From an uncultured Gammaproteobacteria bacterium (GTDB taxonomy: Bacteria; Patescibacteriota; Microgenomatia; Levybacterales; UBA12049), in the NCBI GenBank assembly GCA_964474445.1, contig CAYYSJ010000001.1, positions 270,530 to 334,529 on the forward strand: a stretch of 64,000 nucleotides of DNA, written 5' to 3'. The position numbers and the translations under genes were made by a program. The notes below the pieces were generated by a model, which ran no database searches, was not told where the DNA came from, and saw nothing but the letters and a program-made list of their open reading frames with translations. Below, piece after piece: positions 23,595-57,142 of this stretch. Every line of letters starts with the position of its first letter. Position 1 is the stretch's first letter.

Positions 23595-23653
23595 AAAAAA
23601 AGTATAAAGGTTTTCGTGTGAAGTATAAAGGAGATAACATCTCCCGATATCAC

Positions 23654-24727: not shown

Positions 24728-24802
24728 TTTAATAATAGTCTATTTTCAAGCTGAAAGGAATACAACAGAGAGAGAAGCTTGACTGAAGAAGTGCCCAATA
24801 TC

Positions 24803-25819: not shown

Positions 25820-25858
25820 ATTGGTTATTATACTCCAAGTTACGAAGCAAGTGCAAAC

Positions 25859-29670: not shown

Positions 29671-29673
29671 AAT

Positions 29674-30381: not shown

Positions 30382-30416
30382 TATGAAAGATCCTCAAATA
30401 ATTAATAAAACACGTA

Positions 30417-32180: not shown

Positions 32181-32183
32181 AGC

Positions 32184-32831: not shown

Positions 32832-34077
32832 GTTTTCTTTTTCTTACAATAGTTTTAAATTTTGTGTAATAGATACTGTCATCTTCGACATTCTCCATGA
32901 CAACAGTTGATGGTCCCACAGTCACATTGTTACCAATAATAATCCCTGGCATAATGGTCACATTGACTCCAAAATTCGTATTCTCCCCTGCAATAGCGCC
33001 AACATGAGTCCTATGTGTGTTTACAGTTTCATTTCTCACTTTTGAATGAATATATCCTCTATCTAGTCTGACGTTTGCAGTAAGAAATCCTGCAGCAAGT
33101 CTTGTGTTTGCTCCGATAATGCTATCACCAATAAAACCTGTATGAGTTGTAGTGCTTTGGAAAATAATGGAATTTTTTACTTCCATCGTTGCTCCTATGA
33201 CAACATTTTTTTCAACGATAACCCCATTACGAAGAATTGCGTTATTTCCAACAATGACATTCTCACCCAAAAAACATGGACCCTTAATACATGCTCCTTC
33301 AAGTATCTGCACCCCGTCTGAGACATACACAGGACCGACAAGGACGGCATTCGGAGCAATTCTTGCTTTTTTACTGATATGAGAACGAACATCTTTAAGC
33401 AACAGATCTTTTACAGACAACAAATCCCAGGCATATTTCAATGTTATTGTTTCCATGTGAGCAAGTGTATAACCAACTCGGCCTTCTTTCGCGTAAGCAT
33501 CAAGTGCTTTTTCAAAATGATAGTGCTCAATAGGCGTTTCTTCTAATACCGCGAGGAACTGTTTCGAGAGTAGGTACATGCCAATAACGCGCAGGCCTTT
33601 CCCCATCTTTTGTGAGGGTTTTTCGACAACATGCTTTACTTCCTTTCCGGCAACATCCAACACACCGTATTCTGCAAGAGTAACATCTTCCTTGGCAAGT
33701 AGTACAACATCATGCCGTCTATCTTTTGCTTGCAACAATTGGGGAATAGCATCTGCACATTCAAAATGATATGCACTTAAAAGAAAAAATGAATCTTCTA
33801 CGTATTCTTTTGCTGATAATAATGCATGACCCATACCAAGTGTTTCCTTTTGCACAACGTATCGAATCGACATACCAGGAATATCAGGAATCATTGAAGC
33901 AATAGAACTTTCCTCTGCTATAACAATAATGACATTTGTTACATGAGCTTTTTTTAGCGATAACAGGGTATGATGGAGAAGGGATATATCCATAAGAGGA
34001 GTAATAGATTTATGAGGAAACGATACAAATGGATAAAATCGCTTTGATTTACCTGCTGCTAAAATAACTGCCTGCAT
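32824..34077 (-). CDS. sugar-1-phosphate nucleotidyltransferase fused to left-handed beta-helix acyltransferase (GlmU-like, archaeal-type)
   Basis: N-terminal ILAAGKSKRF NTP-transferase loop. C-terminal hexapeptide repeats (IGNNVTVG etc). Confidence 0.7.
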   Translation of the reverse strand: MQAVILAAGKSKRFYPFVSFPHKSITPLMDISLLHHTLLSLKKAHVTNVIIVIAEESSIASMIPDIPGMSIRYVVQKETLGMGHALLSAKEYVEDSFFLLSAYHFECADAIPQLLQAKDRRHDVVLLAKEDVTLAEYGVLDVAGKEVKHVVEKPSQKMGKGLRVIGMYLLSKQFLAVLEETPIEHYHFEKALDAYAKEGRVGYTLAHMETITLKYAWDLLSVKDLLLKDVRSHISKKARIAPNAVLVGPVYVSDGVQILEGACIKGPCFLGENVIVGNNAILRNGVIVEKNVVIGATMEVKNSIIFQSTTTHTGFIGDSIIGANTRLAAGFLTANVRLDRGYIHSKVRNETVNTHRTHVGAIAGENTNFGVNVTIMPGIIIGNNVTVGPSTVVMENVEDDSIYYTKFKTIVRKRKHE

Positions 34078-45085: not shown

Positions 45086-46378
45086 CTATAACATAAAGTA
45101 TTTTCTCAGGAATACTCTTACACGATACAATAAACTTGGATGGAGTGGTTCAAGAACGATTTCCTCACTATTGTCTTTGTTTGGAGAGAGAGCAATGGTT
45201 ACTGTCTGATACCCGAGATGTTGTATGGTAAGAGAAGAGGATGAATTGCTAACCAATGGTATTTGATATGTTCCACTGAAATCTGTTGTACTGGTAAAAC
45301 CATCATTAGTCATTACACTTGTATTTGTAAGCAGATCTCCGAGAGTATCTTTTATCACCCCACGGACAAATGTAGGTTGATAGTATCCATGTAAAACCTG
45401 TGCAACAAGTCGTGGTGAATCATCATCATTGAATAACGCTGTAGATCCATCCAGAATAGTCCAATAGTTTATACCAGTAATATTTTCGCTGTGCGTATAG
45501 AACACGTGGAGAAGTTTTTCTACAAAATCTGCTTGTTCTTTTTCTGTCATAGCTCCATTGAGATCAGGAATGGGTGCACCAAATTCTCCCACTACAATCT
45601 GTGCATGAAAATGTTGTATAAGATAATCAATAGTATTTTCCATATCTCTTGGATTTGCCACGTAGTGATCTACAACAACAATATGTCCGACTTTATCAAC
45701 TGTTTCTGATGTCAATACCTGTTTGGCTACATCGGCATTCATTGAAAAATAACCACACTGAACATGCTTATGTATTTGCTGCATGCTATTTATACAGTTG
45801 TTGTATGAGTTAACTAAAAAACGATTGAACCTTACAGACTTTTCATTTGATCCTCTTGGATCCCCTTCTCCACCGTTTTCTGGCTGTGGAGTTGGAGTAA
45901 AAATATCCCCATCTTCAAATAGATCCGGATGTCTTAAAATGAATGCTTTTGTCAGTTTGTGATGTTGAGATATATCAGTAAACTTTGGGTAATCAAACCA
46001 TCCTTCCCATCCTGAAAAATTGCCTCGAAACCAAACTTTGAGATGATATCTCCTTGATTCATCCACCCATTCTTTTATCGTTGGGTAAAACTCTTCATCG
46101 TAAGGAGTTGCTATGGCAATATGAGTTGGATGGAGACTTGCGACATGCTGAACAACCAGGGAGATTTCACTTCGTGTAATACTCTTTGCTTTATCGCGAG
46201 AATATTTCATAGTGTCAATAGATGTTACTTCCCAAACAGTAGACTGCTGTTGGGACTGAGTTTTTTGAGGAATTGAAAGCATTTGCTGAGTGAAGGTAAA
46301 AATGAATAGTCCTAACCCAATAAAGACACCTCCAGCAAGAGAAATAAATTCTTTTTTGCTGTCATTTCTTTTTGCCAT
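45086..46378 (-). CDS. membrane-anchored putative glycoside hydrolase (TIM-barrel-like) with C-terminal beta-sandwich
   Basis: N-terminal TM. Central region with GH-like acid/aromatic blocks (WFRGNFSGWEGWFDYP, HIVVVDHYVAN, VVGEFGAP). C-terminal carboxypeptidase-regulatory-like domain. Family not resolved. Confidence 0.4.
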   Translation of the reverse strand: MAKRNDSKKEFISLAGGVFIGLGLFIFTFTQQMLSIPQKTQSQQQSTVWEVTSIDTMKYSRDKAKSITRSEISLVVQHVASLHPTHIAIATPYDEEFYPTIKEWVDESRRYHLKVWFRGNFSGWEGWFDYPKFTDISQHHKLTKAFILRHPDLFEDGDIFTPTPQPENGGEGDPRGSNEKSVRFNRFLVNSYNNCINSMQQIHKHVQCGYFSMNADVAKQVLTSETVDKVGHIVVVDHYVANPRDMENTIDYLIQHFHAQIVVGEFGAPIPDLNGAMTEKEQADFVEKLLHVFYTHSENITGINYWTILDGSTALFNDDDSPRLVAQVLHGYYQPTFVRGVIKDTLGDLLTNTSVMTNDGFTSTTDFSGTYQIPLVSNSSSSLTIQHLGYQTVTIALSPNKDNSEEIVLEPLHPSLLYRVRVFLRKYFML

Positions 46379-47996
46379 AATAAGATATTACATGTAATTG
46401 ATCTAGATATCGTGGATTTAGTTCGTAGATATCTGCAAACGGAAAATGTTCTATTAACGTATACTTCTTAAAGCCCGGTGATGTACGAACTACTTTAAAT
46501 GTTTGATCATTTATATCATTTGTTCGCATAACAATCCACTGTGCCCATCTATCTGGATTTTTTGTGGCACTATCCCAATACGTTCCCGTCCCCTCATGAA
46601 TGAATTTACTCATGGGAAGACCTGAAGAGAAGATAATTGCATCATGAGAAGCTGCTGAAATCAAGATGAGTCCTGGCTCATCTTTAGCGTGCTTTGCCAA
46701 CCAGGTACTTACCTCTGTAACATTTTTCTGACTTGCTCCTACTCTTGCATCATCGATAGTAACGGCATCTTTACTGGCAAAAGAAAAGAACGTGACAAAC
46801 AGCAGTAGTCCAATTAGTACGGTACGTAAAGTTTTTACTTTACCGACTAAGTATCCGACAAAAATAGCAATTGAAGGAGACATCATGATCCCATACCGAA
46901 CGTTAAACAAAGTATTTCCGGAAATACCTTGTACAAAGAGTACTGAAAAACCCAAGTAAAGAGAGAGTATATTAAAAACAAGTGGTGTCAATAATGCGAG
47001 ACTGATAATTTTGGTATTACTGCAAATCTTCTTATTCAAATAAAATATCACTGCTCCAACAGCGCCGAGAAACAAGATAAATAATCCAACATTGTAAGCT
47101 AAGGCATAGTAATATACTTTAAAGGACAACGCGAGGTTACTTTTTGTTATCAGATCTCCTGCCTGGGAAAGTTGTTCTTGCTGTGCATGTGCAGAATATG
47201 GTCCGAGAGCAAAATATAACGCATCATGAAAAATAAATTGATTCCACAAGAACCATAGTGCAATGCCAAAGCCAGCAAGAGTGATAAATAAAAGAACAAG
47301 TCCTTCTGTGGCCTTGTATCCTTTTTGTTTAAAGAACACAATCGCTATCAGTATTGTAGTAACAAAAAATAAAAACCATCCATCATATCGAATGAGTGTT
47401 GTAAGCATTATCCAAAAGCTTGCTTTTACAAAATCGATTATTTTTTGTTCCTGCTGCCAAACTAAGAGATAGTATATCCCAGCAATCATTGCTGCAAGCA
47501 ATGGAAGTTCTGTCATTGCGGTGGATTGTAAATAAAGAACATTAATATTTGCGACAAAAATGAATACGCCTACAATTCTTCCTACTATTCCCGTTTCTAT
47601 TCTCTTTAAAAAGAGAAAAATAAGAAAGCCAATTGCAACAAATGAAATCATAGACTCTAGCGCTCCTGATAAACCTGAATGCCACATACCATTGTTCCAA
47701 ATAGTTGGTATCATGAGTAAATGAGGCAATGGAAGCCAGACACTTCCTATTTGTCCAAGGCCTGGTTTGAGGCCTTCAACAACACGTCTCCCAATATCTA
47801 AATGTGACCGCGCATCATTATATGCAACTCCTAAGCCATTCGTATAATAGAAAATAAAACTGACAATTGAAATGATAATTAAAATAAAAAGTACTATTTT
47901 GGGTAGTATTTTTTCAAGATCCTGTCCCTTTATTGTGAGGATGCCCTTTGCTATCTGAATATGATATTCCAATTCAAATTGTGTTAATTTTTTCAT
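46362..47996 (-). CDS. GT-C fold membrane glycosyltransferase (ArnT/PMT-like, GT39/GT83-type)
   Basis: About 12 TM helices. First extracytoplasmic loop with Asp-containing motif (YNDARSHLDIGRR), large C-terminal soluble domain. Start set at ATG 47996, which forms an ATGA overlap with the stop of the upstream gene. Confidence 0.6.
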   Translation of the reverse strand: MKKLTQFELEYHIQIAKGILTIKGQDLEKILPKIVLFILIIISIVSFIFYYTNGLGVAYNDARSHLDIGRRVVEGLKPGLGQIGSVWLPLPHLLMIPTIWNNGMWHSGLSGALESMISFVAIGFLIFLFLKRIETGIVGRIVGVFIFVANINVLYLQSTAMTELPLLAAMIAGIYYLLVWQQEQKIIDFVKASFWIMLTTLIRYDGWFLFFVTTILIAIVFFKQKGYKATEGLVLLFITLAGFGIALWFLWNQFIFHDALYFALGPYSAHAQQEQLSQAGDLITKSNLALSFKVYYYALAYNVGLFILFLGAVGAVIFYLNKKICSNTKIISLALLTPLVFNILSLYLGFSVLFVQGISGNTLFNVRYGIMMSPSIAIFVGYLVGKVKTLRTVLIGLLLFVTFFSFASKDAVTIDDARVGASQKNVTEVSTWLAKHAKDEPGLILISAASHDAIIFSSGLPMSKFIHEGTGTYWDSATKNPDRWAQWIVMRTNDINDQTFKVVRTSPGFKKYTLIEHFPFADIYELNPRYLDQLHVISYYGKKK

Positions 47997-50212
47997 GTAT
48001 GCTCCTTTCTGATATACACTCCTGCCATAAGAATAAGGCAAGACAGAAGAAGAATTGTGTAAATAGCTACGTAGTAATTCATTGCAGAAATTTTATCCTT
48101 TAGATAAAATTGCCAAACAAAAGATTTTGAATGATCTTCCTTTAACAAATCAAGATCCCGTTCGTAGGTATATTTCTCTACTTTTCCACTTATCTTTTCG
48201 AATACAGGGACTTGGATTTGTGGTGGATTGCTATTTGAGGTTAATGCTCCTATGGTATTTACAGATAAAGACCATGCGAACGGAAGGAAAAACACCAAAA
48301 GAAAGATGAGATGTTTTTTCCATGTTTCTACTGTGAAAGCGAGAAATAAGGCACAAAGTGCGTAGGAAGGGATAAGGTATCTAGCACCAAAAGCCCATCC
48401 TCCCCATGGATCTCCCCACATCATATAGAGAAGTATGTTTATGCCAATAATGGCGATCAGTAAAGAAGCAATGGAGCTATTCTTCTTATATAAATAAATA
48501 GCCCCCCAAATACTTAAAAACATTATTGGGGTAAACCATAGTACCCCTCTATCAGGTGATAACAAAAGAATATATGCGCCATTTATCATATTTCTTGTTA
48601 AGAAAAATCCCACAGCAGATTTTTTCTTCTCAAAGGCAAGACCTTTATCGACATTACTCAGTTGAAGAAGGGTTGGTTTGCCTTTTGCGTTAATGGCAGA
48701 AACGTCCAGAACCGTTCCTGCTAATTGAAACGGACTACCATAGGAATGTGTGTTAAACCAAAAGAAAAAAACAAAAGGAATAATCATTACGGCAAAAGAT
48801 AGTATTCTCACTATTTTTATCTTTATTGTCATACTGTTTTCCATAACTCTCACATATATAATTTTTCCTAATGCAAAAATTCCTATGGGAAGCATAAAGA
48901 AAACATTCGGATTATCAACAACGGGAGAAAGTGCACATAAAAACCAGATCAACGCAAGAGACCAGATTGAATCCCATGCAATTACAGCATAAAGACTCAT
49001 GAGAATAAGAAACGTAGAGATGTGATGTTGATAGAGGGAAACAGCATAGGAAAAAGCGGGTGATCCAAACAAAAAGGCAAATGCAGCAATTGTCGCGGCT
49101 CCTCGACCTGCTCCAAGTTTTATAGCGATTTTTCTGATAAGTATGGCATTTAAAAGACCAAAAAATGCAATCACGGCAAATGACCCTACTTGTGACATGC
49201 CCAATAACTTTCCGACGGAATACCCTGGAAGGATCATAAATGATATAGCGGGAGCAAAAAGAGATACATAGTGACCATTTTTAAAACCCACGTCCGGTGT
49301 AGAAAATCGTGCAAGGGGCAGGCTTAAATATAATGAGTGATTTTCTATAAATGAGTATGTTAATGCAAATCTCCCTCTTTCTGGAGACAATTCAAATGGT
49401 CCTGAATCTCTCCAGAAAGTAGAATTAAGTGTTATTTCTGTGGGATTTCCTAAAATCCCACGTAATGACAGTGCGAGTATAATACTGCAAAAAACAATAA
49501 AGAAAAATAGGGAAGCTACTTTGTTAAACTTTGTAAATCTATGAAGAAAACGTAGAAGTATATTTCTTAGGAGGATGCTTCTCTTGTTGTTAACAAGAGT
49601 TGTCTGTATATGAGACGTGTCAGTTGCTTTTATTGTATTATTTTTTAAAACCCTGTTAAAAAATTCGAGTCGTCCCCTTACATATTCTCTTAGTGAGGAA
49701 CCATTTAAGTCTTTCTTTAATTTTTCGTATTCATATAAAATTCTTTTATCATGTTTAAATATCTGAAAAATTCTTAGTCTTTCTTTACACATACTTGTAT
49801 CTGGATCCATCAAGGAAAGTTCAACAGGGAATCCTTTCCAAGAAAAATGCCATTCTATAAAATTCTTTCTGATTTTATATGGCTTTCCAAATAGACGAGT
49901 GAATGTTAGTATGTATTTATGAAAACTTTCTTTAGGGCTTACTGTATATAAATCTATATCATTCAATCCTGCAATCTTCAGACTACTAGACCCTGCGGCA
50001 ATTATTTTCAATGTGGGAAATTGTGATTTTATTATAATAATAATGTTTTGTATTGCTTTTTGGACCAGAGGATTATATGGCCCAATTCTTACTTTTTGTT
50101 TTGAAGATAGTACAAAAGAAAATAGATACTCTCTTGGACTTTGTACAAGGAGTAGAATATCTCGTCTCATTCGTTTCATCCGTTTTTTTATTTCTGACAT
50201 GTATTTTTCCAT
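47993..50212 (-). CDS. fusion protein: GrpB-like nucleotidyltransferase domain + GT-C fold membrane glycosyltransferase
   Basis: N-terminal about 230 aa with AAGSSSLKIAGLNDIDLY (GrpB/pol-beta NTase GS...DIDL motif). C-terminal about 500 aa polytopic, ER-motif loop (LSPERGRFALTYSF) like ArnT/PMT. Start uncertain (ORF extends to 50278). Confidence 0.55.
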   Translation of the reverse strand: MEKYMSEIKKRMKRMRRDILLLVQSPREYLFSFVLSSKQKVRIGPYNPLVQKAIQNIIIIIKSQFPTLKIIAAGSSSLKIAGLNDIDLYTVSPKESFHKYILTFTRLFGKPYKIRKNFIEWHFSWKGFPVELSLMDPDTSMCKERLRIFQIFKHDKRILYEYEKLKKDLNGSSLREYVRGRLEFFNRVLKNNTIKATDTSHIQTTLVNNKRSILLRNILLRFLHRFTKFNKVASLFFFIVFCSIILALSLRGILGNPTEITLNSTFWRDSGPFELSPERGRFALTYSFIENHSLYLSLPLARFSTPDVGFKNGHYVSLFAPAISFMILPGYSVGKLLGMSQVGSFAVIAFFGLLNAILIRKIAIKLGAGRGAATIAAFAFLFGSPAFSYAVSLYQHHISTFLILMSLYAVIAWDSIWSLALIWFLCALSPVVDNPNVFFMLPIGIFALGKIIYVRVMENSMTIKIKIVRILSFAVMIIPFVFFFWFNTHSYGSPFQLAGTVLDVSAINAKGKPTLLQLSNVDKGLAFEKKKSAVGFFLTRNMINGAYILLLSPDRGVLWFTPIMFLSIWGAIYLYKKNSSIASLLIAIIGINILLYMMWGDPWGGWAFGARYLIPSYALCALFLAFTVETWKKHLIFLLVFFLPFAWSLSVNTIGALTSNSNPPQIQVPVFEKISGKVEKYTYERDLDLLKEDHSKSFVWQFYLKDKISAMNYYVAIYTILLLSCLILMAGVYIRKEHT

Positions 50213-50219
50213 ATAATTT

Positions 50220-51002
50220 TTATATTGGTAAATCTTTTGGGATAAAATAGACTTCTTCGTGATAAGGAATACGTCCATCAGGAAATAAATGCAAGAATTG
50301 TGATTGATAAGACGCGATCTGTTCTCTTTTTTTTATCAGATCTACTGTTACTACAATTTTTTGATATCCTTTTGGAGGCTTACCATAATTATTTAGCCAA
50401 ATATTATAGGGGAAATCACTATAATAGATTATGTTCTTTGATAGCGCTTTGCACACATTATGGACCAATATATGATCAACATGATTACCAATTCCCAAAG
50501 GAGCAAAAATATAATCATTTTTCACATTAGTAATTTGTTTTATTTGCTGAGTAATATTTTTCATAGTTGACCAGTCGAGGGGAGATAATCTTCCTGTGGT
50601 AATATGATATTTGTATGTAGGGTATATAACTGATAATTCAGGAATTACTGTCTCGAGCATTTGTAATAATCCGTGCTTTTCTTTCTTTCTCCATAAAGCA
50701 TCAACAAACCCCAAATTAATTGGTGAAATGTGCAGTTTTTTATATGCAGACCTATCCTCTTCACGTCTTCTTTTATATAATATACTTGCATTTTTGTATC
50801 CTAATTTTTTTAGATACCACCAAGCAGATATTGTTGATTTAACATTAGGTGCATCTGTGAAGACATTTATGACAATCAATTCTCTTTTTTTTGAAAGAGA
50901 GCTTATTAGCTGACTACATGACAATAATGCATCGTCAAGATGAGGTGACACAAAACAATAATTTGTTTTCATTCTTAAAAAAGTTCTAAGAAAGTTATCC
51001 AT
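50220..51002 (-). CDS. PIG-L/LmbE-family N-acetylglucosaminyl deacetylase
   Basis: VSPHLDDALLSC (HPDDE-type) and GNHVDHILVH (HxDH) zinc-binding motifs. Confidence 0.75.
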   Translation of the reverse strand: MDNFLRTFLRMKTNYCFVSPHLDDALLSCSQLISSLSKKRELIVINVFTDAPNVKSTISAWWYLKKLGYKNASILYKRRREEDRSAYKKLHISPINLGFVDALWRKKEKHGLLQMLETVIPELSVIYPTYKYHITTGRLSPLDWSTMKNITQQIKQITNVKNDYIFAPLGIGNHVDHILVHNVCKALSKNIIYYSDFPYNIWLNNYGKPPKGYQKIVVTVDLIKKREQIASYQSQFLHLFPDGRIPYHEEVYFIPKDLPI

Positions 51003-52101
51003 GGTGTTTAAGTATAGTATTCACAAATGTTTTGTATTTTTTTGCTATGTTATCCCATGTTTGCAATGTAACTAATTTCCTTCCCCTTTCGGACAACAAT
51101 TTCCTTAGTTTTATGTCTTTTGATAGTTTTACCATTGCTTTTCCAAACATATGTGAATTAAAAATAGGAATCTTTATAGAAACAGATTTTGGAATCCAAC
51201 GTAAACCAGGAATGTCAAAACATACTATTGGTATTCCATAGTTAAGAGATTCGAGTGCTATTAATGAGTACGTTTCATATCGTGATGGAATAACGACAAA
51301 AATTGCATTTCTCAGAAGCCTTTTTTTCTTTTCTCCTTCTATTCTTCCAACAAAAATAATATTCTTACCTAAATGAAGTTTCCTAACAAGAGATTTTAAT
51401 ATTTCCTGATCTGCTGGCATCCCTGATCCAGCTATCACAAGAGAAAAATCCAATTCATCTTGTACTGTTTTGTAACTTTCCAATAATAAATCTAGTCCTT
51501 TTTGATTTACTTCTAACCTGCCCATAAAAAGTATGTATTTTTTGTTGTTTGTACTCATTGGCTTTTCATGATGAATCCCATTAGGAATAATAGTAACGAA
51601 AGATTCAGCATTCTTTTTTTGTATGAGTGCCTTTGAATACTTACTAAGAACAATAAAGTATCTATATGTGCGTAGACCAAAATCTTCAATAACATGAAAA
51701 GGTAACTTATATTTTCTTTCCATATCTGCAGCACAAAGCATATGGACCAAGCCAATAACTGGTTTTTTTGTGACTAACTGCAAAAATCCCGTAGAAAATG
51801 GTGGAGTAAAATTCTCAATCCATACATCGAATTTCTGTGACATAGCATAGAATGGAAGAAGTAGTTGATATACAAATTGTTCAAATTGTGGATTACCAAA
51901 GGGATAACCAATCCTTTTGTAGGTAATGTTATCTATCTTCTCATCTGAACTATTTTTAAACTTTGCTGTTATAATGGACACGTCATAGCTTGAGGAAATT
52001 TTTTTTGCAATTTCGTGTATCGCAATTGCACCTCCTCCTGAATAATAAGGATTTCCAATTGAGTCGTAATTAGAGAAAATGATTGTCTTTTTTTTATTCA
52101 T
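50995..52101 (-). CDS. GT4-family glycosyltransferase (GT-B)
   Basis: C-terminal FMGRLEVNQKGLD...SRYETYSLIALESLNYGIPIV with EX7E motif. Confidence 0.8.
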   Translation of the reverse strand: MNKKKTIIFSNYDSIGNPYYSGGGAIAIHEIAKKISSSYDVSIITAKFKNSSDEKIDNITYKRIGYPFGNPQFEQFVYQLLLPFYAMSQKFDVWIENFTPPFSTGFLQLVTKKPVIGLVHMLCAADMERKYKLPFHVIEDFGLRTYRYFIVLSKYSKALIQKKNAESFVTIIPNGIHHEKPMSTNNKKYILFMGRLEVNQKGLDLLLESYKTVQDELDFSLVIAGSGMPADQEILKSLVRKLHLGKNIIFVGRIEGEKKKRLLRNAIFVVIPSRYETYSLIALESLNYGIPIVCFDIPGLRWIPKSVSIKIPIFNSHMFGKAMVKLSKDIKLRKLLSERGRKLVTLQTWDNIAKKYKTFVNTILKHHG

Positions 52102-55100
52102 GTATTTGCTACGGTACTTATTTCAGGTTCTGGAACCATTTGTACTGTCTCGCTCATAAATAGTTGTAAACTTTCTTTAGCACTCGTATCCCAGTCATAA
52201 ATTTTTGCCCATTCTATAGCGTTTCTTGATAATTGTTCTCTCAGGTTGTTATTGGTAATAATTTCAATAATCTTTTGTGCAAATGCATCAGCATTACCAT
52301 ACTCAACAAGAAAACCCGTATTGGGATTGTTAATTGAGTCACATAAACCAGGAACATCTGAAGCAATAGCAGGTGTTCCACACGCATTTGCCTCAATCGT
52401 TGTAATTCCCCATCCTTCTATCATTGATGGGTTAACTAGTACCCATGATTTTTGGAATAATTCAATTTTTTCTTTTTCAGTAATTTGTCCTAAGAAGAAA
52501 ACATTGTTTTCAATTTGTAATTTTCCTACAAGCTTTTGCATTCTCTTTTTATCTTCACCATCACCCGCAATAATAAATTGTATATCTGACATCTTTTGGA
52601 GAATTTTATCAGCCGCATGAATAAGTACCTGAAGACTTTTATAGAATTGAATTCTTCCTACGTACAAAATAATTGGTTTTTCATTCTTCTTACCAGGTTT
52701 GAATTTAGTCAAATCTACCCCATTGTAAATAATAGTTGGTTCAATAGTTGTAAGTTTATGAGATAGTATGGCTTGCTTGGTTGACGGAGAAACCGTAAAA
52801 ATTTGTGTATTTTTATACACAAGCGGCATAAGTTTTAATTCTAAAAAGGAGGCCAGCCAAGAGAAAGGAGGTATAAGGGATTTTCTAAATACTTCTTGAT
52901 GCACATGGTGAATAAGAAGAAATATTTTTTGCCTAGCGTAGAGCGGTGTAAAGAATGGTATACCATTCTCACAATCGAGAATAATATTGTAGCTATTTCT
53001 ATATTTGAATATGTAATACAAAAATGCCCAAACATACACAAAATAAAAACCTCCTCTTCTTTGTACTTCTACCCCATCAATAATTTCATGTTTTAAAGAT
53101 TTTCCATCATTGCTGCAAAATAATGTTACCAGATAACCATCTTTGATCCATCGTTTTGAAAGTTCATGAATGTATATCTCTGCTCCTCCAGCAAACTTAT
53201 GTCTTGTATCTCTCCAATTAAATATTAAAATGGCTTTCCTATCCCTGTTTACATTAGGTGATTCCTGCGAGAAGAATAATTCAAAAACATCCTTCAGATT
53301 ATTTTCAAATACTATAACGTGTTTTCGCATGAGGTGAAGTAGAACCATTCCTATGATATGTAATGCAGCAGTAGTAACCATTACTTCTACAAAATCAGCA
53401 ATACTTTGATGAATGAGTTGTAAGAGTATTATTTGTATTATTCCTAACACAAAAGCGAGTAAAGAAAATGTGTATATTTTCTTTGCTAGATAAAACGAAA
53501 CAATAATTTGTGATAGAGAAAAACAAACCAACCCTAAACAAAATACTGGTAGATAATCTGTTATCGATATTGCTTTTGGTCCAAAAAAAAGAGGGACCGT
53601 TAGATAACCAAATAAGCCGAGTACTATATAGCCAAAAGATGTTAGTAAACCAGCCGAAAGCAATGTGTACGTTAGCACGTGGTCTGAATTTTTATTAGCT
53701 CCTTCGCTTCGACTAACAAGAGGCATAATAAAGGGAAATACTAAAGAAGCTAGAAAATAAATTATTTTCCCTGTCAATGAAAGTAACGAATATTTTCCAG
53801 CATCCAAAGGTGGTAAAAAGTGTTTTGCTAAGATAACATCCAAACTCAAAAAACTTATTGCTGATAATCCTCCAAGAACAGATACTAAAAAGAATTTAAT
53901 TGGGAAACTCATTTGGTAAATAGTTTCTTTCAGGGATATATGTTTTGTCGTTAGTACTAATACAACTAATCCAAAAACAAAAGATGAAATAACAGACAAT
54001 GGAATGGAAACATACGTAAGTGAGCCACCGTAAAGAGGTGCTAGGATAAGTGCAAAAGATAATTTTATAATAGGTTCAATGACATATACGACTCCTACAA
54101 TAGCAAAAAGAAATTCCCCATACAAAAATCCCTTATTTACCGCTGTAGGAATAATGATGATAAGTAAAGGAATAAAAGAAAGGAAAACATATGGGTCGTT
54201 AATATTAAAAAAGTGCATGAATAGAGGGGAAAAGGCTATCCAAAGACAAGCAAAAAACACGGAAATGAAAAGTGATTTTTTGAATACATCTTTCCAGATA
54301 CTAAGACTTGCTCCTTTTCCATATTTCCCTACCATGTAGCTACTTTGGTGGTTAACAGTTGCACTTATAGCAGTTATCGGTATAGATAAAAAAGACAAAA
54401 AACTTCCAAGAGTGGTAATAAGTGAAAAATTTTCTAAATCTAAAACTCTCCCAAGATAGGCATTAAAAATAAAATTGAGTACATTTGCGATATTTATAGC
54501 AAGGATAAGTAAAGCCCCTTCCCAAAAAGGTTGTTTGTTTTGTAAACTGCCTATGATTTTTTCCCTCAGCGTTTCTACCGGTAAAAAAATGCTTCTTATA
54601 CCAAGAATAAGTTTTGGTATTTCCTTGTTTTTGCTTGGTTGCAAATGTAACCCATGAAGGGTTTTTTCCCAATAGTAAGGTCTGAAAAGTAATTGATACA
54701 ATGCAATAACTCCAGACCAACTAATAAGGAACCAATAGATGGGAATACAATAGACATATTTAACAAGCTCCCATTGCTCCTTTTTTGTGCATCCAAGCAT
54801 ATAGAGATATGCGAACATAAAATTCCCGAAAACTAATGAACTAAATGCAATATAGAAAACATAAGAAGGATATAATGCTTGAATAGATGGGCCAACAAGG
54901 GAAAAAAGAATAAAATAGGCAATGGTTGCAGTCCAAAGGAGTGGATTAATAAGAATAAATGCAACTTTTCCACCAATGGTAAGGTGAAAAAATAACGCAT
55001 GAATGATATTATTTTTGATAAATAAAAAATCCTCTCGTGTATGAACTAAGTATGTTTGCATATATCCTTTGATCCATCGCGATCGCTGTCGTATCCAATT

Positions 55101-56783
55101 AGCAACACTACTATTTGCTTCTTCCAAAGTAATTGATTCAATGATTGCTGTTTTGTAACCTTTCTTAAAAAGCCGTATACCCAAATCTGCATCTTCGGCT
55201 ACATTAAATGGATCCCATCCTTGAAGGTGTTTCATGTCTTCTGTTCGGAAATGGTTGCTTGTTCCACCAAGTGGAATACTAGTATGTGTCGCTTGAAGAC
55301 CAGTAAGTGTTATGTCAAACCACAAGGAATACTCAGCGGTAAAAAAACGAGTTAATAAGTTCTGGTGAGGATTGTAGTAGTTAAGCTTTGCCTGTAAACA
55401 TACAACATCTCCTGCAACTTTTTGGAATCCAAGATAAGCTTTTTTTAATTGGAATGGATCAGGGATGTCTTCTGCATCATAAATAACTACGTATTCCCCT
55501 TTTGTTTGAGAGAGTCCATAATTGCACGCTTTTGGTTTCGTTTTAGGAATTGAGTGAGGAACAATAACTGGACGAATATAGGAAGGGAGGTTTCTGTTTG
55601 TAACTGCTTCAATAAACTTTTTATCATCTTCTTCAAGGAGAAGCATGACATCAAGTTTTTCTTTCGGCCAATTAAGTTTTGCAATTGCCTCTATAAATTG
55701 TGGAATAACATCTGTTTCTTTATACAATGGACAGAGAATGGAATAGATGGGGAGATTCTCATCTTTAAGTGCGTGTAACTCATCAGGTGTTGAGAAAATT
55801 TCTTGAGGAGAATGAAGACTTCTCATAACAAGGAAAAAATTAAACAAGACATCAACAAAGTAAATAAAGCTTAAAGCGCCAATAATGCATTGTGCGGTGA
55901 AGAGTGGCTTTAGGAAAAGTCCTAGGAGTATCAATACAACGAGTAATCCAATCATTATTTTTTGTTTGCCAATAAGGGTTTGAATAGCAGATTGAGAATG
56001 ATGAAGAGTGGTATGCGTAATATATTTTCTTCTCTTATACCCCACTCCTGCTCCTTTCATCGACCCTTTATCAGTTGGAGGAAAATGAATTGGGTTAATT
56101 TTCTTTCCTTTAACTAACAATGCATTTAGTCCTATCTCAACGCTTGTCTTAAGGAGAGATACTTTTGACTTACCATTTATTCGCTGGGCGAAGATAATGT
56201 CAAAGCTTTCAACAACAAATCCTGCTTCCGTTGCACGCTGGAGGAATTCAAGATCAAATGTCCAGCCAGAGGAAGGAGCATAGGAGAGAGTCTGAAAGAC
56301 CTCCCTTTTAAAAACTTTCAACCCTGCTTGAATATCATGATTAAGGCCAAATAGAAGCTCACCAAATACATATCTAAATGAATTACTAATAAGGCTACGT
56401 ACTTTTGAGACATGTTTTTCTATCCGATTCGCAACAACAACATCTGCTCCATTCTCAAGTTTTTTGATCATTTTCGGAATTACCTCTGGAGGATATTGGA
56501 GATCTGCATCAATACATACAATATAGTCGCTCGAAGATTTTTGAATACCTTGATAAAGAGAAAAAGCTTTCCCTCTCTTTCCTTTTTTTATTTCAAATCT
56601 AATAGGATACTTTGTTTGTAGAGACTTGATAACCTGTAGGGTATTATCTGTAGAGAAATCGTCAACAAAAATAATTTCATATGACTTATTTTCTTTTACA
56701 AACGCTGTATGTATTCTGTTAACCAGCGGTGTAATATTATTTTCTTCATTCCAGACAGGAATAATAATAGTAATGTGTTTCAT
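52098..56783 (-). CDS. giant four-module glycosyltransferase: GT2 (Dpm1/ArnC-like) + processive GT2 synthase (QxxRW/TED) + polytopic flippase-like membrane domain + GT4
   Basis: Residues 5-230: IIIPVWNEE...DADLQ (GT2-A). Residues 345-590: DAED, TED, QRSRW (processive GT2 as in BcsA/PgaC/NodC), plus 4-5 TM helices. Residues 760-1160: about 12 TM helices resembling a Wzx/MOP-type polysaccharide exporter. Residues 1185-1540: GT4 with EGWGITTIE (EX7E). First ATG is at 56783; the ORF track starts at TTG 56795. Confidence 0.8.
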   Translation of the reverse strand: MKHITIIIPVWNEENNITPLVNRIHTAFVKENKSYEIIFVDDFSTDNTLQVIKSLQTKYPIRFEIKKGKRGKAFSLYQGIQKSSSDYIVCIDADLQYPPEVIPKMIKKLENGADVVVANRIEKHVSKVRSLISNSFRYVFGELLFGLNHDIQAGLKVFKREVFQTLSYAPSSGWTFDLEFLQRATEAGFVVESFDIIFAQRINGKSKVSLLKTSVEIGLNALLVKGKKINPIHFPPTDKGSMKGAGVGYKRRKYITHTTLHHSQSAIQTLIGKQKIMIGLLVVLILLGLFLKPLFTAQCIIGALSFIYFVDVLFNFFLVMRSLHSPQEIFSTPDELHALKDENLPIYSILCPLYKETDVIPQFIEAIAKLNWPKEKLDVMLLLEEDDKKFIEAVTNRNLPSYIRPVIVPHSIPKTKPKACNYGLSQTKGEYVVIYDAEDIPDPFQLKKAYLGFQKVAGDVVCLQAKLNYYNPHQNLLTRFFTAEYSLWFDITLTGLQATHTSIPLGGTSNHFRTEDMKHLQGWDPFNVAEDADLGIRLFKKGYKTAIIESITLEEANSSVANWIRQRSRWIKGYMQTYLVHTREDFLFIKNNIIHALFFHLTIGGKVAFILINPLLWTATIAYFILFSLVGPSIQALYPSYVFYIAFSSLVFGNFMFAYLYMLGCTKKEQWELVKYVYCIPIYWFLISWSGVIALYQLLFRPYYWEKTLHGLHLQPSKNKEIPKLILGIRSIFLPVETLREKIIGSLQNKQPFWEGALLILAINIANVLNFIFNAYLGRVLDLENFSLITTLGSFLSFLSIPITAISATVNHQSSYMVGKYGKGASLSIWKDVFKKSLFISVFFACLWIAFSPLFMHFFNINDPYVFLSFIPLLIIIIPTAVNKGFLYGEFLFAIVGVVYVIEPIIKLSFALILAPLYGGSLTYVSIPLSVISSFVFGLVVLVLTTKHISLKETIYQMSFPIKFFLVSVLGGLSAISFLSLDVILAKHFLPPLDAGKYSLLSLTGKIIYFLASLVFPFIMPLVSRSEGANKNSDHVLTYTLLSAGLLTSFGYIVLGLFGYLTVPLFFGPKAISITDYLPVFCLGLVCFSLSQIIVSFYLAKKIYTFSLLAFVLGIIQIILLQLIHQSIADFVEVMVTTAALHIIGMVLLHLMRKHVIVFENNLKDVFELFFSQESPNVNRDRKAILIFNWRDTRHKFAGGAEIYIHELSKRWIKDGYLVTLFCSNDGKSLKHEIIDGVEVQRRGGFYFVYVWAFLYYIFKYRNSYNIILDCENGIPFFTPLYARQKIFLLIHHVHQEVFRKSLIPPFSWLASFLELKLMPLVYKNTQIFTVSPSTKQAILSHKLTTIEPTIIYNGVDLTKFKPGKKNEKPIILYVGRIQFYKSLQVLIHAADKILQKMSDIQFIIAGDGEDKKRMQKLVGKLQIENNVFFLGQITEKEKIELFQKSWVLVNPSMIEGWGITTIEANACGTPAIASDVPGLCDSINNPNTGFLVEYGNADAFAQKIIEIITNNNLREQLSRNAIEWAKIYDWDTSAKESLQLFMSETVQMVPEPEISTVANT

Positions 56784-57142
56784 TTCTACAGACAATGCTA
56801 ATAACGATATATAGGCATTGTGTTGAACCTATGTAGGACTCTTTTGTAAGAATGGTTTTTCATACTGGCGGTTTTTATTGACTATAGGCAGACCAGTATG
56901 TAGTCCTCCTACTAAAGTAATGAGAAGTTGTTTGTCCAAATACTTTTTTCCATGTGATGGTAATGTGCTCATTTCTTTTTATGGAATTAGTATTTTCTCT
57001 ATTCTCCTTCTCGTACTATAAGTGGGACTATTAACGTTAAAATATACAGGAAGCAAGTAAAAAGAAATGATAAATATGCAACAAGTTAGTAAGAACGTTT
57101 TATAACTAAGACCATGAGAGGTTCTTTCTTCATGTGATTTTA

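What the first reader, a model, noticed from the sequence alone, without database searches (positions are those of the whole stretch)
47993..50278. GrpB-family nucleotidyltransferase domain fused to a GT-C membrane glycosyltransferase
The N-terminal 230 aa carry the GrpB/pol-beta NTase signature (GSSSLKIAGLNDIDLY). The C-terminal roughly 500 aa form a polytopic GT-C-like domain. GrpB domains are usually stand-alone or CoaE-associated; fusion to a membrane glycosyltransferase is unusual. It could indicate nucleotidylation (e.g. AMPylation or other NMP transfer) coupled to glycan transfer.
Basis: partly seen in the sequence, partly recalled or inferred. Interest (0 to 1): 0.6.

Follow-up and report, generated by a model that had tools for sequence, protein, structure and literature searches.

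The report
Nucleotidyltransferase-like domain fused to membrane glycosyltransferase
A real single gene in an uncultured ultra-small (CPR/Patescibacteria-type) bacterium joins a cytoplasmic, divergent GrpB-type nucleotidyltransferase domain to a 12-helix GT-C membrane glycosyltransferase; it is a rare fusion of two neighbouring genes of a widespread cell-surface sugar operon, and gives GrpB, a family with no known chemistry, a pathway setting.

Summary
A stop-free ORF (47993-50278, minus strand; likelier start ATG 50212, 739 aa) joins a soluble N-domain to a polytopic membrane domain.

**N-domain.** It is a divergent GrpB. Its own Pfam score is sub-threshold (15-19 bits against 25.5). All 12 close relatives hit PF04229, several above threshold. 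The G-S/DxD/E nucleotidyltransferase signature is near-invariant in 159 relatives. The AF2 model (pLDDT 93.6) matches the pol-beta palm.

**C-domain.** The model (pLDDT 91.6) gives significant or high-probability matches only to GT-C enzymes (ArnT, ALG12/9, Emb, Pmt4, AftB, STT3). It hits no Pfam family.

**Topology.** 12 TM, N-in/C-in. The GrpB-like domain is cytoplasmic and the conserved GT-C loop is outside, so direct "coupled" catalysis is unlikely.

**Context.** The gene lies in a conserved Patescibacteria operon: DPMS/ArnC-like GT2 + BcsA-like GT2 + GT4 giant protein, GT4, PIG-L deacetylase, this gene, a paralogous membrane protein, and a CarboxypepD_reg protein.

**Recurrence.** The GrpB-like subfamily is an accessory module, present in 7 of 80 such operons. 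It always sits next to or fused with an amine-generating enzyme. Elsewhere it is fused to APH kinases, PIG-L or NodB deacetylases, GT2, GT4, a flippase, and both membrane proteins, once in reversed order.

**Reading.** Most likely a membrane-tethered cytoplasmic tailoring enzyme for amino-sugar precursors. The chemistry is unproven.

The parts
47993..50212 (-). The fused gene (739 aa from ATG 50212; the maximal ORF extends to ATG 50278, 761 aa, overlapping the PIG-L gene). Residue numbers below use the 761-aa ORF.
49625..50191 (-). Cytoplasmic GrpB-like nucleotidyltransferase domain (ORF aa 30-218). It includes an N-terminal helical extension carrying the conserved PREYLYSF motif.
   Evidence: Pfam GrpB aa 63-212 at E = 0.029 and 0.0017 for the isolated domain. 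All 12 relatives hit PF04229. 2nrk is the best PDB profile hit. AF2 pLDDT 93.6. Pol beta/lambda palm matches.
49946..49993 (-). NTase signature GSSSLKIAGLNDIDLY: G96-S97 and the D107-x-D109 metal-binding pair.
   Evidence: Conservation in 159 subfamily members: G 158, S/A 159, D 154 (+5 E), D 158 (+1 E); numbering.
49820..49822 (-). Codon of E153 (in PVELSL), the third acidic residue of the NTase triad.
   Evidence: E in 101 and D in 37 of 159 members. The aligned position in GrpB 2nrk is His.
47996..49570 (-). GT-C-fold membrane domain (ORF aa 237-761), 12 predicted TM helices, N-in/C-in.
   Evidence: AF2 pLDDT 91.6, pTM 0.92. Foldseek: ArnT 5ezm E = 1.5e-4, ALG12 8e-4, then Emb, Pmt4, AftB, ALG9 and STT3. 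Hydropathy and positive-inside analysis. No Pfam family. Weak NCBIfam LA_3751/LA_3752 hit, E = 5.8e-9.
49196..49462 (-). First extracytoplasmic loop (about aa 273-361) with invariant G293-P294-x-E296-x-S298-x-x-R301-G302, E312 and P328-D329. This is the candidate GT-C catalytic and substrate loop.
   Evidence: Invariant columns of the 56-sequence alignment A4. Secondary structure after TM1. Numbering.
50220..51002 (-). PIG-L-family de-N-acetylase gene immediately upstream (stop 7 nt before ATG 50212).
   Evidence: PF02585 E = 6.4e-14. PDB relatives are teicoplanin pseudoaglycone deacetylases. PIG-L is fused to the GrpB-like domain in P0003, P0150, P0178, P0180, P0213, P0232, P0238 and P0270.
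50995..52101 (-). GT4 glycosyltransferase gene.
   Evidence: PF00534 E = 1.5e-25. A relative is fused to the GrpB-like domain in P0161 (E = 6.9e-108) and P0226.
52098..56795 (-). 1565-aa multi-domain protein. It comprises a polyprenyl-phosphate sugar synthase-like GT2 (aa 1-~230), a BcsA-like processive GT2 (~350-650), an unassigned polytopic module (~700-1190) and a GT4 (~1200-1565).
   Evidence: Pfam. aa 1-330: DPMS 5mlz 7e-25, ArnC 1e-18, GtrB 4e-16; NCBIfam PgfS and ArnC. aa 330-720: cellulose synthase BcsA 2.5e-13. The middle part has no family hit.
46362..47996 (-). memb2, a 544-aa polytopic protein and distant co-linear paralog of the GT-C domain. Its ATG (47996-47994) overlaps the fused gene's TGA (ATGA), with AAGGAG 5 nt upstream.
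   Evidence: hhalign profile-profile E = 3e-5 over 293 columns. NCBIfam LA_3751/2 E = 2.4e-5. A relative is fused to the GrpB-like domain in P0133 (E = 2e-59).
45086..46378 (-). Last conserved gene of the operon: a 430-aa protein with a C-terminal CarboxypepD_reg domain and a weak glycoside-hydrolase-like middle.
   Evidence: conserved downstream of memb2 in most of the 80 loci and in L001/L002.

Best explanation
**Shown**
- This is a genuine single gene. It most plausibly arose by fusion of two neighbouring genes of a conserved Patescibacteria (Microgenomates-type) envelope-glycan operon.
- The N-terminal ~190-aa domain belongs to a divergent GrpB subfamily whose NTase catalytic residues (G-S, DxD, E/D) are under strong conservation.
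- The domain has no hydrophobic segment before TM1 and a strongly basic flank, so it sits in the cytoplasm.
- The C-terminal 525 aa fold as a 12-TM GT-C glycosyltransferase of a sequence family without a Pfam model. Its invariant acidic and basic residues lie in the first loop outside the membrane.
- The operon also encodes a DPMS/ArnC/GtrB-like polyprenyl-phosphate sugar synthase, a BcsA-like synthase, two GT4 domains, a PIG-L de-N-acetylase and a second, paralogous GT-C-like protein.

**Inferred: the pathway**
1. A GT2 domain loads a sugar, probably a HexNAc, onto polyprenyl phosphate, and/or a GT4 domain builds a GlcNAc-bearing lipid-linked precursor.
2. PIG-L unmasks its amine at the cytoplasmic face.
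3. The precursor is flipped across the membrane.
4. The GT-C domain, possibly together with memb2, transfers the sugar to an extracytoplasmic acceptor. This follows the ArnC/ArnD/ArnT and GPI (PIG-A/PIG-L/DPM1/PIG-M) logic.

**Inferred: the role of the GrpB-like domain**
- It is an optional tailoring enzyme that acts in the cytoplasm on the amino-sugar intermediate.
- Most likely it transfers an NMP from an NTP to a sugar hydroxyl, as aminoglycoside nucleotidyltransferases do. Alternatively it forms another phosphodiester decoration.
- Where APH-type kinases are present it often acts alongside them.

**Inferred: what the fusion does**
- It tethers a soluble enzyme to the membrane machinery that handles the lipid-linked substrate.
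- It does not couple the two chemistries at one active site.
For: **Gene integrity and recurrence**
- One ORF, identical in the database protein and in an independent assembly.
- The same architecture occurs in P0002 and P0228, and the reversed order (GT-C then GrpB-like) in P0137. Both orders keep the soluble domain cytoplasmic, given 12 TM with N-in/C-in topology.

**GrpB relationship and catalytic competence:**

**GT-C fold:**. Invariant loop residues.

**Donor-supplying GT2:** DPMS 7e-25, ArnC 1e-18, GtrB 4e-16; NCBIfam PgfS, ArnC, AglJ and PpgS.

**Operon conservation**
- memb1 occurs in 277 species genomes.
- memb2, the CarboxypepD_reg protein, GT4 and the giant protein are syntenic in most of 80 loci.
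- A stand-alone GrpB-like gene (P0124) sits in the same operon order.
- In L059 a stand-alone GrpB-like gene lies immediately upstream of memb1. This shows how the fusion could arise.

**Pathway link of the GrpB-like domain**
- Fusion partners: memb1 and memb2, PIG-L (7 representatives), NodB deacetylase (3), APH (12), GT2, GT4, a Polysacc_synt flippase, a FemAB-like GNAT, HAD and a methyltransferase.
- In all 13 GrpB-positive loci it is adjacent or fused to PIG-L, NodB or DegT, or within one gene of one.
- Amine-generating genes occur in 7 of 7 GrpB-positive loci against 46 of 73 GrpB-negative loci (one-sided Fisher p = 0.049).
Against: - No activity, substrate or nucleotide specificity is shown for any GrpB protein. 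The only experimental report found assigns the UPF0157 domain of M. tuberculosis CoaE a folding role (PMC2765170).
- This protein's own Pfam score is below threshold.
- The operon works without the GrpB-like gene in about 91% of loci, so the gene is not core.
- The association with amine-generating enzymes is statistically weak (p about 0.05).
- This window's operon has no APH kinase.
- The flippase step has no assigned gene here.
- The sugar, acceptor and lipid carrier are unknown.
Confidence: 0.55

Rival explanations
1. The GrpB-like domain is a precursor-activating enzyme. It converts a phosphorylated small molecule, made by the APH-type kinase where present, into an NDP-activated donor. 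The logic is kinase then nucleotidyltransferase, as in LicA/LicC or AmgK/MurU (own knowledge). That donor then feeds the cytoplasmic GT2 and GT4 enzymes of the operon. The domain would not decorate a lipid-linked intermediate.
For: APH kinases are the commonest fusion partner: 12 representatives, usually in the order APH then GrpB-like, and often PIG-L-APH-GrpB-like. HAD phosphatase fusions also occur. Salvage-type activation would suit reduced-genome CPR bacteria (own knowledge).
Against: Known pol-beta-fold NTases transfer NMP to hydroxyl groups rather than to phosphates, and known sugar-1-phosphate NTases have a different fold (own knowledge). This window's operon has no APH gene. Fusions to integral membrane proteins (two GT-C-like proteins, a flippase, a GT2) fit a membrane-proximal substrate better.
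Confidence: 0.2
2. The GrpB-like domain is not an enzyme here. It would be a folding, assembly or nucleotide-sensing regulatory module that helps whichever operon protein it is attached to, as reported for UPF0157 in M. tuberculosis CoaE.
For: The only experimental role found for a GrpB domain is assisting the folding of CoaE (PMC2765170). The domain fuses promiscuously to many unrelated partners, as a generic adaptor might.
Against: The catalytic G-S, DxD and third acidic residues are near-invariant across 159 divergent members. That is not expected for a purely structural module. 107 of the 150 best representatives are stand-alone proteins. The partners are not random: all are glycan-tailoring or glycan-assembly enzymes of one operon.
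Confidence: 0.12
3. The NTase domain nucleotidylates (for example AMPylates) the GT-C domain's own donor, acceptor or the GT-C protein itself, as part of a single concerted transfer step.
For: The covalent fusion occurs in both domain orders. That indicates selection for proximity of the two domains.
Against: The NTase domain is cytoplasmic, whereas the invariant GT-C loop is extracytoplasmic. NTPs are not available outside the cell (own knowledge). In most genomes the GrpB-like domain is a separate protein or is fused to other enzymes, and 73 of 80 GT-C loci lack it. Regulatory AMPylation of a cytoplasmic loop is not excluded.
Confidence: 0.06
4. The fusion is an artefact: a sequencing or assembly error removed a stop or frameshift between two adjacent genes.
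For: In related genomes the two parts can be separate adjacent genes, for example L059.
Against: The identical fused protein occurs in an NCBI record and in an independent Logan assembly. Three other lineages carry GrpB-like::GT-C fusions at 40-50% identity (P0002, P0228, P0003), and one carries the reverse order (P0137). The linker is continuous and leads into a confidently modelled TM1 helix.
Confidence: 0.02

Closest known systems
GrpB / UPF0157 family (PF04229; COG2320): E. faecalis GrpB structure 2nrk and the C-terminal domain of M. tuberculosis CoaE
   Same: The full-length Pfam profile is matched (2-158 of 159). The pol-beta-type G-S and DxD motifs are present. The GrpB-type C-terminal helices with Y-x-x-L-K ... 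Y ... K/R-x-x-F align with 2nrk. Close relatives score above the Pfam threshold.
   Different: This is a divergent branch: this protein scores 15-19 bits against a cutoff of 25.5. It has an extra N-terminal helical hairpin with the PREYLYSF motif. The third catalytic position is E/D, where 2nrk aligns a His. It is embedded in glycan operons and fused to glycan enzymes rather than to CoaE. The family has no demonstrated chemistry.
ArnT and the ArnC-ArnD-ArnT route, with the analogous Francisella FlmF2/NaxD/FlmK and Bordetella LgmA-C amino-sugar routes (own knowledge)
   Same: ArnT is the best structural match of the membrane domain (5ezm, E = 1.5e-4, TM 0.48). The operon has an ArnC-like polyprenyl-phosphate GT2. 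It also has a deacetylase next to the GT-C gene: PIG-L here, an ArnD-type NodB deacetylase in L003.
   Different: No sequence-level membership in ArnT/PMT families. The domain has 12 TM and no large soluble periplasmic domain. The acceptor cannot be assumed to be lipid A. The Arn-type pathways have no NTase or APH component.
GPI-anchor and mycobacterial PIM/LM-type glycolipid assembly: PIG-A (GT4), PIG-L, DPM1 (GT2), PIG-M/V/B and ALG9/12 (GT-C) (own knowledge)
   Same: The same set of enzyme classes lies in one operon: GT4 next to PIG-L, a DPMS-like GT2, and GT-C proteins. ALG12 and ALG9 are among the top structural matches, and PIG-U appears further down the list.
   Different: The organism is bacterial (CPR). 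There is no evidence for an inositol lipid. The operon also holds a BcsA-like processive synthase. GPI and PIM pathways contain no GrpB-like or APH enzymes.
Aminoglycoside-modifying enzymes (ANT nucleotidyltransferases, APH phosphotransferases) and LicD/fukutin-type NTase-fold phosphotransferases (own knowledge)
   Same: A pol-beta-fold NTase and an APH-family kinase recur together, next to enzymes that make free-amine sugars. This suggests O-modification of amino sugars.
   Different: No detectable sequence relationship to ANT or LicD families: only GrpB, plus weak NTP_transf_2 and MTPAP hits. The resemblance is functional analogy only and was not tested.
NCBIfam NF047440, LA_3751/LA_3752 family putative glycosyltransferases (Leptospira)
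   Same: Both memb1 (E = 5.8e-9) and memb2 (E = 2.4e-5) give partial hits to this family. By its name the family also covers two adjacent loci.
   Different: Scores of 35 and 23 bits lie far below the family cutoff of 200, so neither protein is a member. That family is itself only a putative glycosyltransferase.

Membership tests
GrpB (Pfam PF04229 / UPF0157) | Scores above the Pfam gathering threshold (25.5 bits) | tested here: inconclusive
   This protein scores 15 bits (whole protein) and 19 bits (isolated domain), below the cutoff, although 2-158 of 159 profile positions are matched. Subfamily relatives at E <= 1e-40 to the same profile score 31-41 bits, above the cutoff: P0175, P0268, P0230, P0180, P0198. 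Membership is therefore transitive, as a divergent branch.
GrpB (Pfam PF04229 / UPF0157) | Pol-beta-type nucleotidyltransferase core: G-S motif, DxD on the next strand, and a third metal ligand | tested here: met
   G96-S97, D107-x-D109 and E153 are present and near-invariant in 159 relatives. The AF2 model (pLDDT 93.6) matches pol beta/lambda palm domains at E ~1e-4 with TM-score normalised to the query (TMq) ~0.33.
GrpB (Pfam PF04229 / UPF0157) | GrpB-specific C-terminal helical region (Y-x-x-L-K ... Y ... K-x-x-F) alignable with a solved GrpB | tested here: met
   The subfamily profile's best PDB hit is 2nrk (E = 0.0054), aligned over this region. Y184, K188, Y199 and F206 are conserved in at least 153 of 159 members.
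GrpB (Pfam PF04229 / UPF0157) | Closest solved fold is GrpB rather than another NTase family | tested here: inconclusive
GT-C fold glycosyltransferases | Structural similarity to solved GT-C enzymes | tested here: met
   Model pLDDT 91.6, pTM 0.92. Only ArnT (1.5e-4) and ALG12 (8e-4) have E <= 0.001. The remaining high-probability matches (probability >= 0.97) are also all GT-C: Emb, Pmt4, STT3, ALG9, AftB and ALG3, with TM 0.36-0.50. Non-GT-C hits have probability <= 0.12.
GT-C fold glycosyltransferases | Polytopic protein with cytoplasmic N-terminus, TM1 followed by a long extracytoplasmic loop carrying conserved acidic residues | tested here: met
   12 TM, N-in/C-in by hydropathy and the positive-inside rule. 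The ~90-aa loop after TM1 contains short helices and the invariant residues E296, R301, E312 and D329.
GT-C fold glycosyltransferases | Membership of a named GT-C sequence family (PMT/ArnT, GT22, Emb, STT3 and others) | tested here: not met
   No Pfam family at E <= 1 apart from the N-terminal GrpB hit. None of the listed homologues carries a precomputed Pfam domain for this region. There is only a sub-threshold NCBIfam LA_3751/2 hit. This is a GT-C fold in an undescribed sequence family.
GT-C fold glycosyltransferases | Uses a polyprenyl-phosphate-linked sugar donor | not testable with these tools
   Indirect only: the operon encodes a DPMS/ArnC/GtrB-like GT2 domain, and related operons add a ~304-aa GT2 next to the GT-C gene.
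Arn-type amino-sugar transfer pathway (ArnC/ArnD/ArnT-like) | Polyprenyl-P sugar synthase, de-N-acylase acting on the lipid-linked sugar, and GT-C transferase encoded together | tested here: inconclusive
   All three enzyme classes are present and adjacent. The deacetylase here is PIG-L-type; NodB-type deacetylases take its place in other genomes. The substrate of the deacetylase and the acceptor were not tested.

The most novel reading that the evidence does not exclude
The GrpB-like domain is the first member of the GrpB/UPF0157 family with an assignable chemistry. It would be a membrane-tethered nucleotidyltransferase, or a LicD-like phosphodiester-forming transferase, that decorates a de-N-acetylated amino sugar on a lipid-linked precursor. 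The result would be a nucleotide- or phosphodiester-modified surface glycan specific to some CPR bacteria. The associated ~520-aa protein family, found in at least 277 species genomes, would be a new GT-C family that exports this unit.
Probability: 0.25. Interest if true: 0.7.

Novelty: new variant of a known kind. Interest (0 to 1): 0.5.

Why it matters
**GrpB lacks a function.** GrpB/UPF0157 is a widespread family. The only experimental report found by the searches run here assigns one member a folding role. This work shows that a well-defined GrpB subfamily, with its catalytic residues intact, is wired by gene order and by at least ten different fusion types into one envelope-glycan operon of CPR/Patescibacteria. 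It always sits beside enzymes that create free-amine sugars, and often beside APH-type kinases. That gives a concrete, testable substrate hypothesis for the family.

**A new GT-C family.** The work also defines a large GT-C-fold family with no Pfam model, together with its conserved operon, in bacteria whose cell envelopes are almost uncharacterised.

**Limits.** The fusion itself is an ordinary fusion of neighbouring genes, not a new mechanism.

Tried and rejected
1. **Joint alignment.** A single alignment of full-length, membrane-only and stand-alone GrpB-like proteins (A3) misplaced the stand-alone proteins inside the membrane domain. I discarded it and modelled the two domains separately.
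2. **PDB sequence search.** The whole protein gave only chance hits to chromodomains. The 3-sequence profile gave a spurious hit to an iron-hydroxamate binding protein. Only the 12-sequence profile brought up GrpB 2nrk.
4. **Locus search with the GrpB-like alignment.** The search for related loci failed for lack of a conserved stretch. I used the membrane-domain alignment instead.
5. **memb2 against memb1.** A single-sequence hhalign comparison found nothing. A profile built from 81 memb2 orthologues gave E = 3e-5.
6. **Middle module of the giant protein.** Residues ~700-1190 gave no Pfam or NCBIfam hit. Its presumed flippase role is unsupported and is left as a guess.
7. **Literature.** Searches for GrpB with nucleotidyltransferase, for UPF0157/PF04229/COG2320, for GrpB alone, and for Patescibacteria with GT-C found no functional study beyond M. 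tuberculosis CoaE.
8. **Cluster-member lookup.** It gave no organism names or accessions for the fusion proteins.
9. In one search a label error made the "smallGT2" presence counts read zero. That row is ignored.


Full report
**1. The observation**

- The minus-strand ORF 47993..50278 is uninterrupted: 761 codons and only the terminal stop.
- Its first 59 nt overlap the upstream PIG-L gene. An ATG at 50212, 7 nt after the PIG-L stop (TAA 50222-50220), gives a 739-aa product.
- That 739-aa product is exactly the protein in public collections (P0001, 100% identity, on a 420-kb NCBI contig).
- An independent Logan assembly carries it again, between the same PIG-L and 544-aa neighbours.
- The quoted motif GSSSLKIAGLNDIDLY is at ORF residues 96-111.
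- The gene's TGA overlaps the ATG of the next gene (ATGA at 47996-47993), with AAGGAG 5 nt upstream. The genes are translationally linked in an operon.

**2. The N-terminal domain**

*Sequence evidence*
- Pfam finds only GrpB (PF04229). The match spans the profile end to end (2-158 of 159) but scores below threshold: 15 bits, E = 0.029, cutoff 25.5.
- I collected relatives of the domain alone and aligned them (A2). All 12 members hit PF04229 as their best family, best E = 3.5e-11.
- The profile's best PDB sequence hit is the GrpB structure 2nrk, E = 0.0054. The alignment runs through the C-terminal Y-x-x-L-K ... Y ... K-x-x-F helices.

*Structure evidence*
- The AF2 model is very confident (pLDDT 93.6).
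- It matches pol beta/lambda palm domains at E ~1e-4. This confirms the nucleotidyltransferase fold.

*Size and conservation of the subfamily*
- An exhaustive HMM search of 1.84 billion representatives found 1090 proteins at E <= 1e-3 and 216 at E <= 1e-30.
- In 159 aligned members the catalytic positions are near-invariant:
  - G96: 158 of 159.
  - S97: S or A in 159 of 159.
  - D107: 154 D and 5 E.
  - D109: 158 D and 1 E.
  - E153: 101 E and 37 D.
- W143, Y184, K188 and Y199 are also conserved.
- Conclusion: this is a divergent but genuine GrpB-related branch that looks catalytically competent.

**3. The C-terminal domain**

- Its homologues are abundant: 612 hits, mostly stand-alone proteins of ~520 aa from Patescibacteria, none with a Pfam domain for this region.
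- A model built on 56 homologues is confident (pLDDT 91.6, pTM 0.92).
- Only ArnT 5ezm (E = 1.5e-4, TM 0.48) and ALG12 (8e-4) have E <= 0.001. The other high-probability matches are also all GT-C glycosyltransferases: EmbA/B/C, Pmt4, STT3, ALG9, AftB and ALG3. Transporters and GPCRs appear only at probability <= 0.12.
- Hydropathy, model helices and the positive-inside rule give 12 TM with both termini cytoplasmic. The 28 residues before TM1 hold 7 K/R and no D/E.
- The loop after TM1 (about aa 273-361) carries invariant GP-x-E296-x-S-x-x-R301-G, E312 and P-D329. Further invariant residues are H418, D455, R562, R577 and G626-G-W-x-F-x-x-R633-Y. This is the pattern expected for a GT-C active site facing outward.
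- No named GT-C sequence family is matched. There is only a far sub-threshold NCBIfam hit to "LA_3751/LA_3752 putative glycosyltransferase".
- Conclusion: GT-C fold, undescribed sequence family.

**4. Topological consequence**

- The GrpB-like domain has no hydrophobic segment and no signal peptide, and it precedes an N-in TM1. It is therefore cytoplasmic, while the GT-C catalytic loop is outside.
- The reversed fusion P0137 (GT-C residues 15-522, GrpB-like residues 545-721) also leaves the soluble domain in the cytoplasm, because the C-terminus is inside.
- The two activities thus sit on opposite faces of the membrane.

**5. Genomic context in the window**

All genes below are on the minus strand and abut or overlap.

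| Window coordinates | Gene | Evidence |
|---|---|---|
| 52098-56795 | 1565-aa multi-domain protein (details below) | |
| 50995-52101 | GT4 | |
| 50220-51002 | PIG-L de-N-acetylase (E = 6.4e-14) | |
| 47993-50212 | The fused gene | |
| 46362-47996 | memb2 | |
| 45086-46378 | CarboxypepD_reg protein | |

Modules of the 1565-aa protein:
- The first GT2 domain is closest to polyprenyl-phosphate sugar synthases: DPMS 7e-25, ArnC 1e-18, GtrB 4e-16; NCBIfam PgfS, ArnC, AglJ and PpgS.
- The second GT2 domain is BcsA-like, 2.5e-13.
- An unassigned polytopic module follows.
- A C-terminal GT4 completes the protein.

memb2 is a distant co-linear paralog of the GT-C domain (profile-profile E = 3e-5 over 293 columns), and both hit the same NCBIfam family.

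**6. Conservation of the operon**

- The GT-C family was found in 277 species-representative genomes. The informative labels are Levy-, Woese-, Gottesman-, Roizman-, Curtiss-, Shapiro-, Davies-, Ames-, Dojka- and Moranbacteria and "Patescibacteria group".
- Many TPA MAGs labelled "Gammaproteobacteria" or "Pseudomonadales" carry the same operon and are probably mislabelled.
- In the best 80 loci, memb2, the CarboxypepD_reg protein, GT4 and the giant protein are syntenic almost wherever the contig is long enough.
- A variable set of sugar-tailoring genes lies between GT4 and memb1: PIG-L, NodB deacetylase, DegT aminotransferase, FdtA, an acetyltransferase, an SDR, a methyltransferase, a small GT2, and APH.

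**7. Where the GrpB-like module fits**

- It is accessory. 7 of 80 loci have it, always upstream of memb1 on the same strand, and none of those is fused to memb1.
- A stand-alone copy (P0124) sits in the same operon order: giant, GT4, DegT, GrpB-like, GT2, methyltransferase, memb1, memb2, CarboxypepD_reg.
- In L059 a stand-alone copy lies immediately upstream of memb1. The window's gene is therefore most simply a fusion of neighbouring genes.
- Among the 150 best representatives, 107 are stand-alone and 43 are fusions.

Fusion partners of the GrpB-like domain:

| Partner | Representatives |
|---|---|
| APH-type kinases (12) | P0150, P0178, P0180, P0183, P0189, P0198, P0201, P0230, P0247, P0250, P0254, P0271 |
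| PIG-L (7) | P0150, P0178, P0180, P0213, P0232, P0238, P0270 |
| NodB deacetylase | P0142, P0157, P0209 |
| memb1 | P0001, P0002, P0228, P0137 |
| memb2 | P0133 (E = 2e-59 to the window's memb2) |
| GT4 | P0161 (E = 6.9e-108 to the window's GT4), P0226 |
| GT2 | P0219, P0226, P0250 |
| Polysacc_synt flippase | P0131 |
| Middle module of the giant protein | P0201 |
| FemAB-like GNAT | P0170, P0175 |
| HAD | P0202, P0230 |
| Methyltransferase | P0268 |

P0003, found in the search, combines PIG-L, GrpB-like, APH and memb1 in one chain.

- In all 13 independent GrpB-positive loci the GrpB-like gene is adjacent or fused to PIG-L, NodB or DegT, or within one gene of one.
- Such genes occur in 7 of 7 GrpB-positive loci against 46 of 73 GrpB-negative loci (one-sided Fisher p = 0.049). 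This is suggestive, not strong.

**8. Mechanism**

*Shown*
- One gene.
- A cytoplasmic GrpB-like domain with an intact NTase signature.
- A GT-C-fold membrane domain whose conserved loop faces outward.
- Operon membership alongside a polyprenyl-phosphate sugar synthase-like GT2, GT4 domains and a de-N-acetylase.
- A recurrent physical and genomic link between the GrpB-like module and amine-generating enzymes and APH kinases.

*Inferred from established knowledge of GT-C pathways* (Arn, Flm/Nax, Lgm, GPI, PIM, Gtr and Pgf systems; own knowledge)
- A sugar is loaded on polyprenyl phosphate or built on a lipid at the cytoplasmic face.
- It is de-N-acetylated by PIG-L, flipped, and transferred outside by the GT-C protein or proteins.

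*Inferred for the GrpB-like domain*
- I take it to be an optional cytoplasmic tailoring enzyme of the amino-sugar intermediate.
- Most likely it O-nucleotidylates that intermediate. The alternative is phosphodiester decoration of the LicD/fukutin type.
- The fusion serves to tether it at the membrane.

*Rivals*
- Kinase-then-NTase activation of a small molecule to an NDP-donor. The frequent APH fusions favour this. It is disfavoured by the usual hydroxyl-acceptor chemistry of this fold and by the absence of APH in this window.
- A non-catalytic folding or regulatory role. This is the only experimentally reported GrpB role (PMC2765170). The invariant catalytic residues argue against it.
- Direct coupling, which is disfavoured by the topology.
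- Artefact, which is disfavoured by the independent assemblies and lineages.

**9. Comparison and novelty**

- The N-domain is a divergent member of the GrpB lineage. The C-domain has a GT-C fold but belongs to no described sequence family.
- The whole system works most like Arn-type or GPI-type "lipid-linked amino sugar, then GT-C" pathways, with extra ANT/APH-like tailoring.
- The library searches found no paper describing this operon, this GT-C family or a GrpB-glycan link. The library is incomplete, so this is absence of evidence only.
- I rate it a new variant of a known kind. The fusion itself is ordinary gene-neighbour fusion. The value lies in the functional lead for GrpB and in defining an uncharacterised CPR envelope operon.
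- Interest 0.5.

Noticed in passing
window 52098-56795 (-): One 1565-aa protein strings together four modules: a DPMS/ArnC-like polyprenyl-phosphate GT2, a BcsA-like processive GT2, a ~490-aa polytopic module with no family hit, and a GT4. The same giant gene (1317-1555 aa) heads the operon in L001, L002, L007 and L008, and relatives of it occur in most of the 80 related loci. It looks like a complete single-chain glycan assembly line.
   Followed up: partly
window 46362-47996 (-): memb2, a 544-aa membrane protein, is translationally coupled to the fused gene (ATGA overlap, AAGGAG upstream). It is a distant co-linear paralog of the GT-C domain (hhalign E = 3e-5). memb1 and memb2 are adjacent in nearly all loci, which suggests a heteromeric pair like EmbA-EmbB or Pmt1-Pmt2.
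   Followed up: partly
window 45086-46378 (-); L001 15459-17950; L008 13192-15526: The operon ends with a conserved ~430-aa protein carrying a CarboxypepD_reg domain and a weak glycoside-hydrolase-like middle. In other genomes a ~190-200-aa protein and a sortase follow. This hints that the glycan or its protein acceptor is linked to sortase-dependent surface display.
   Followed up: no
P0230 (1155 aa), P0003 (1260 aa), P0061 and P0104 (~1120 aa): Very large multi-enzyme fusions occur in related bacteria. P0230 combines HAD, GrpB-like, APH, a P-loop kinase and FAD_binding_4. P0003 combines PIG-L, GrpB-like, APH and GT-C. P0061 and P0104 combine APH, NodB deacetylase and GT-C. They show that kinase, deacetylase and NTase modules are interchangeable cytoplasmic appendages of the same GT-C protein.
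   Followed up: partly
window 22473-34077 (-): A cell-wall (dcw-type) cluster holds MurG, FtsW, MraY, a FemAB-family protein, a DegT-type aminotransferase, a Mur ligase, an alpha/beta hydrolase, GlmS, a HAD protein and a GlmU-like NTP-transferase. The FemAB-like and DegT genes sitting inside the cluster are unusual and were not examined.
   Followed up: no
loci L010, L012, L013, L015-L019 and others: Many TPA_asm MAGs are titled "uncultured Gammaproteobacteria", "Pseudomonadales" or "Bdellovibrionales". They carry the same operon as MAGs labelled Levybacteria, Woesebacteria and similar, at 46-54% identity. Their taxonomic labels are probably placeholders or errors.
   Followed up: no
GrpB-like subfamily alignments A2: The subfamily has an N-terminal two-helix extension with a conserved P-R-E-Y-L-Y-S-F motif that is absent from GrpB 2nrk, whose alignment starts after it. 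It also carries E/D at the third catalytic position, where 2nrk aligns a His. These are possible specificity determinants.
   Followed up: partly
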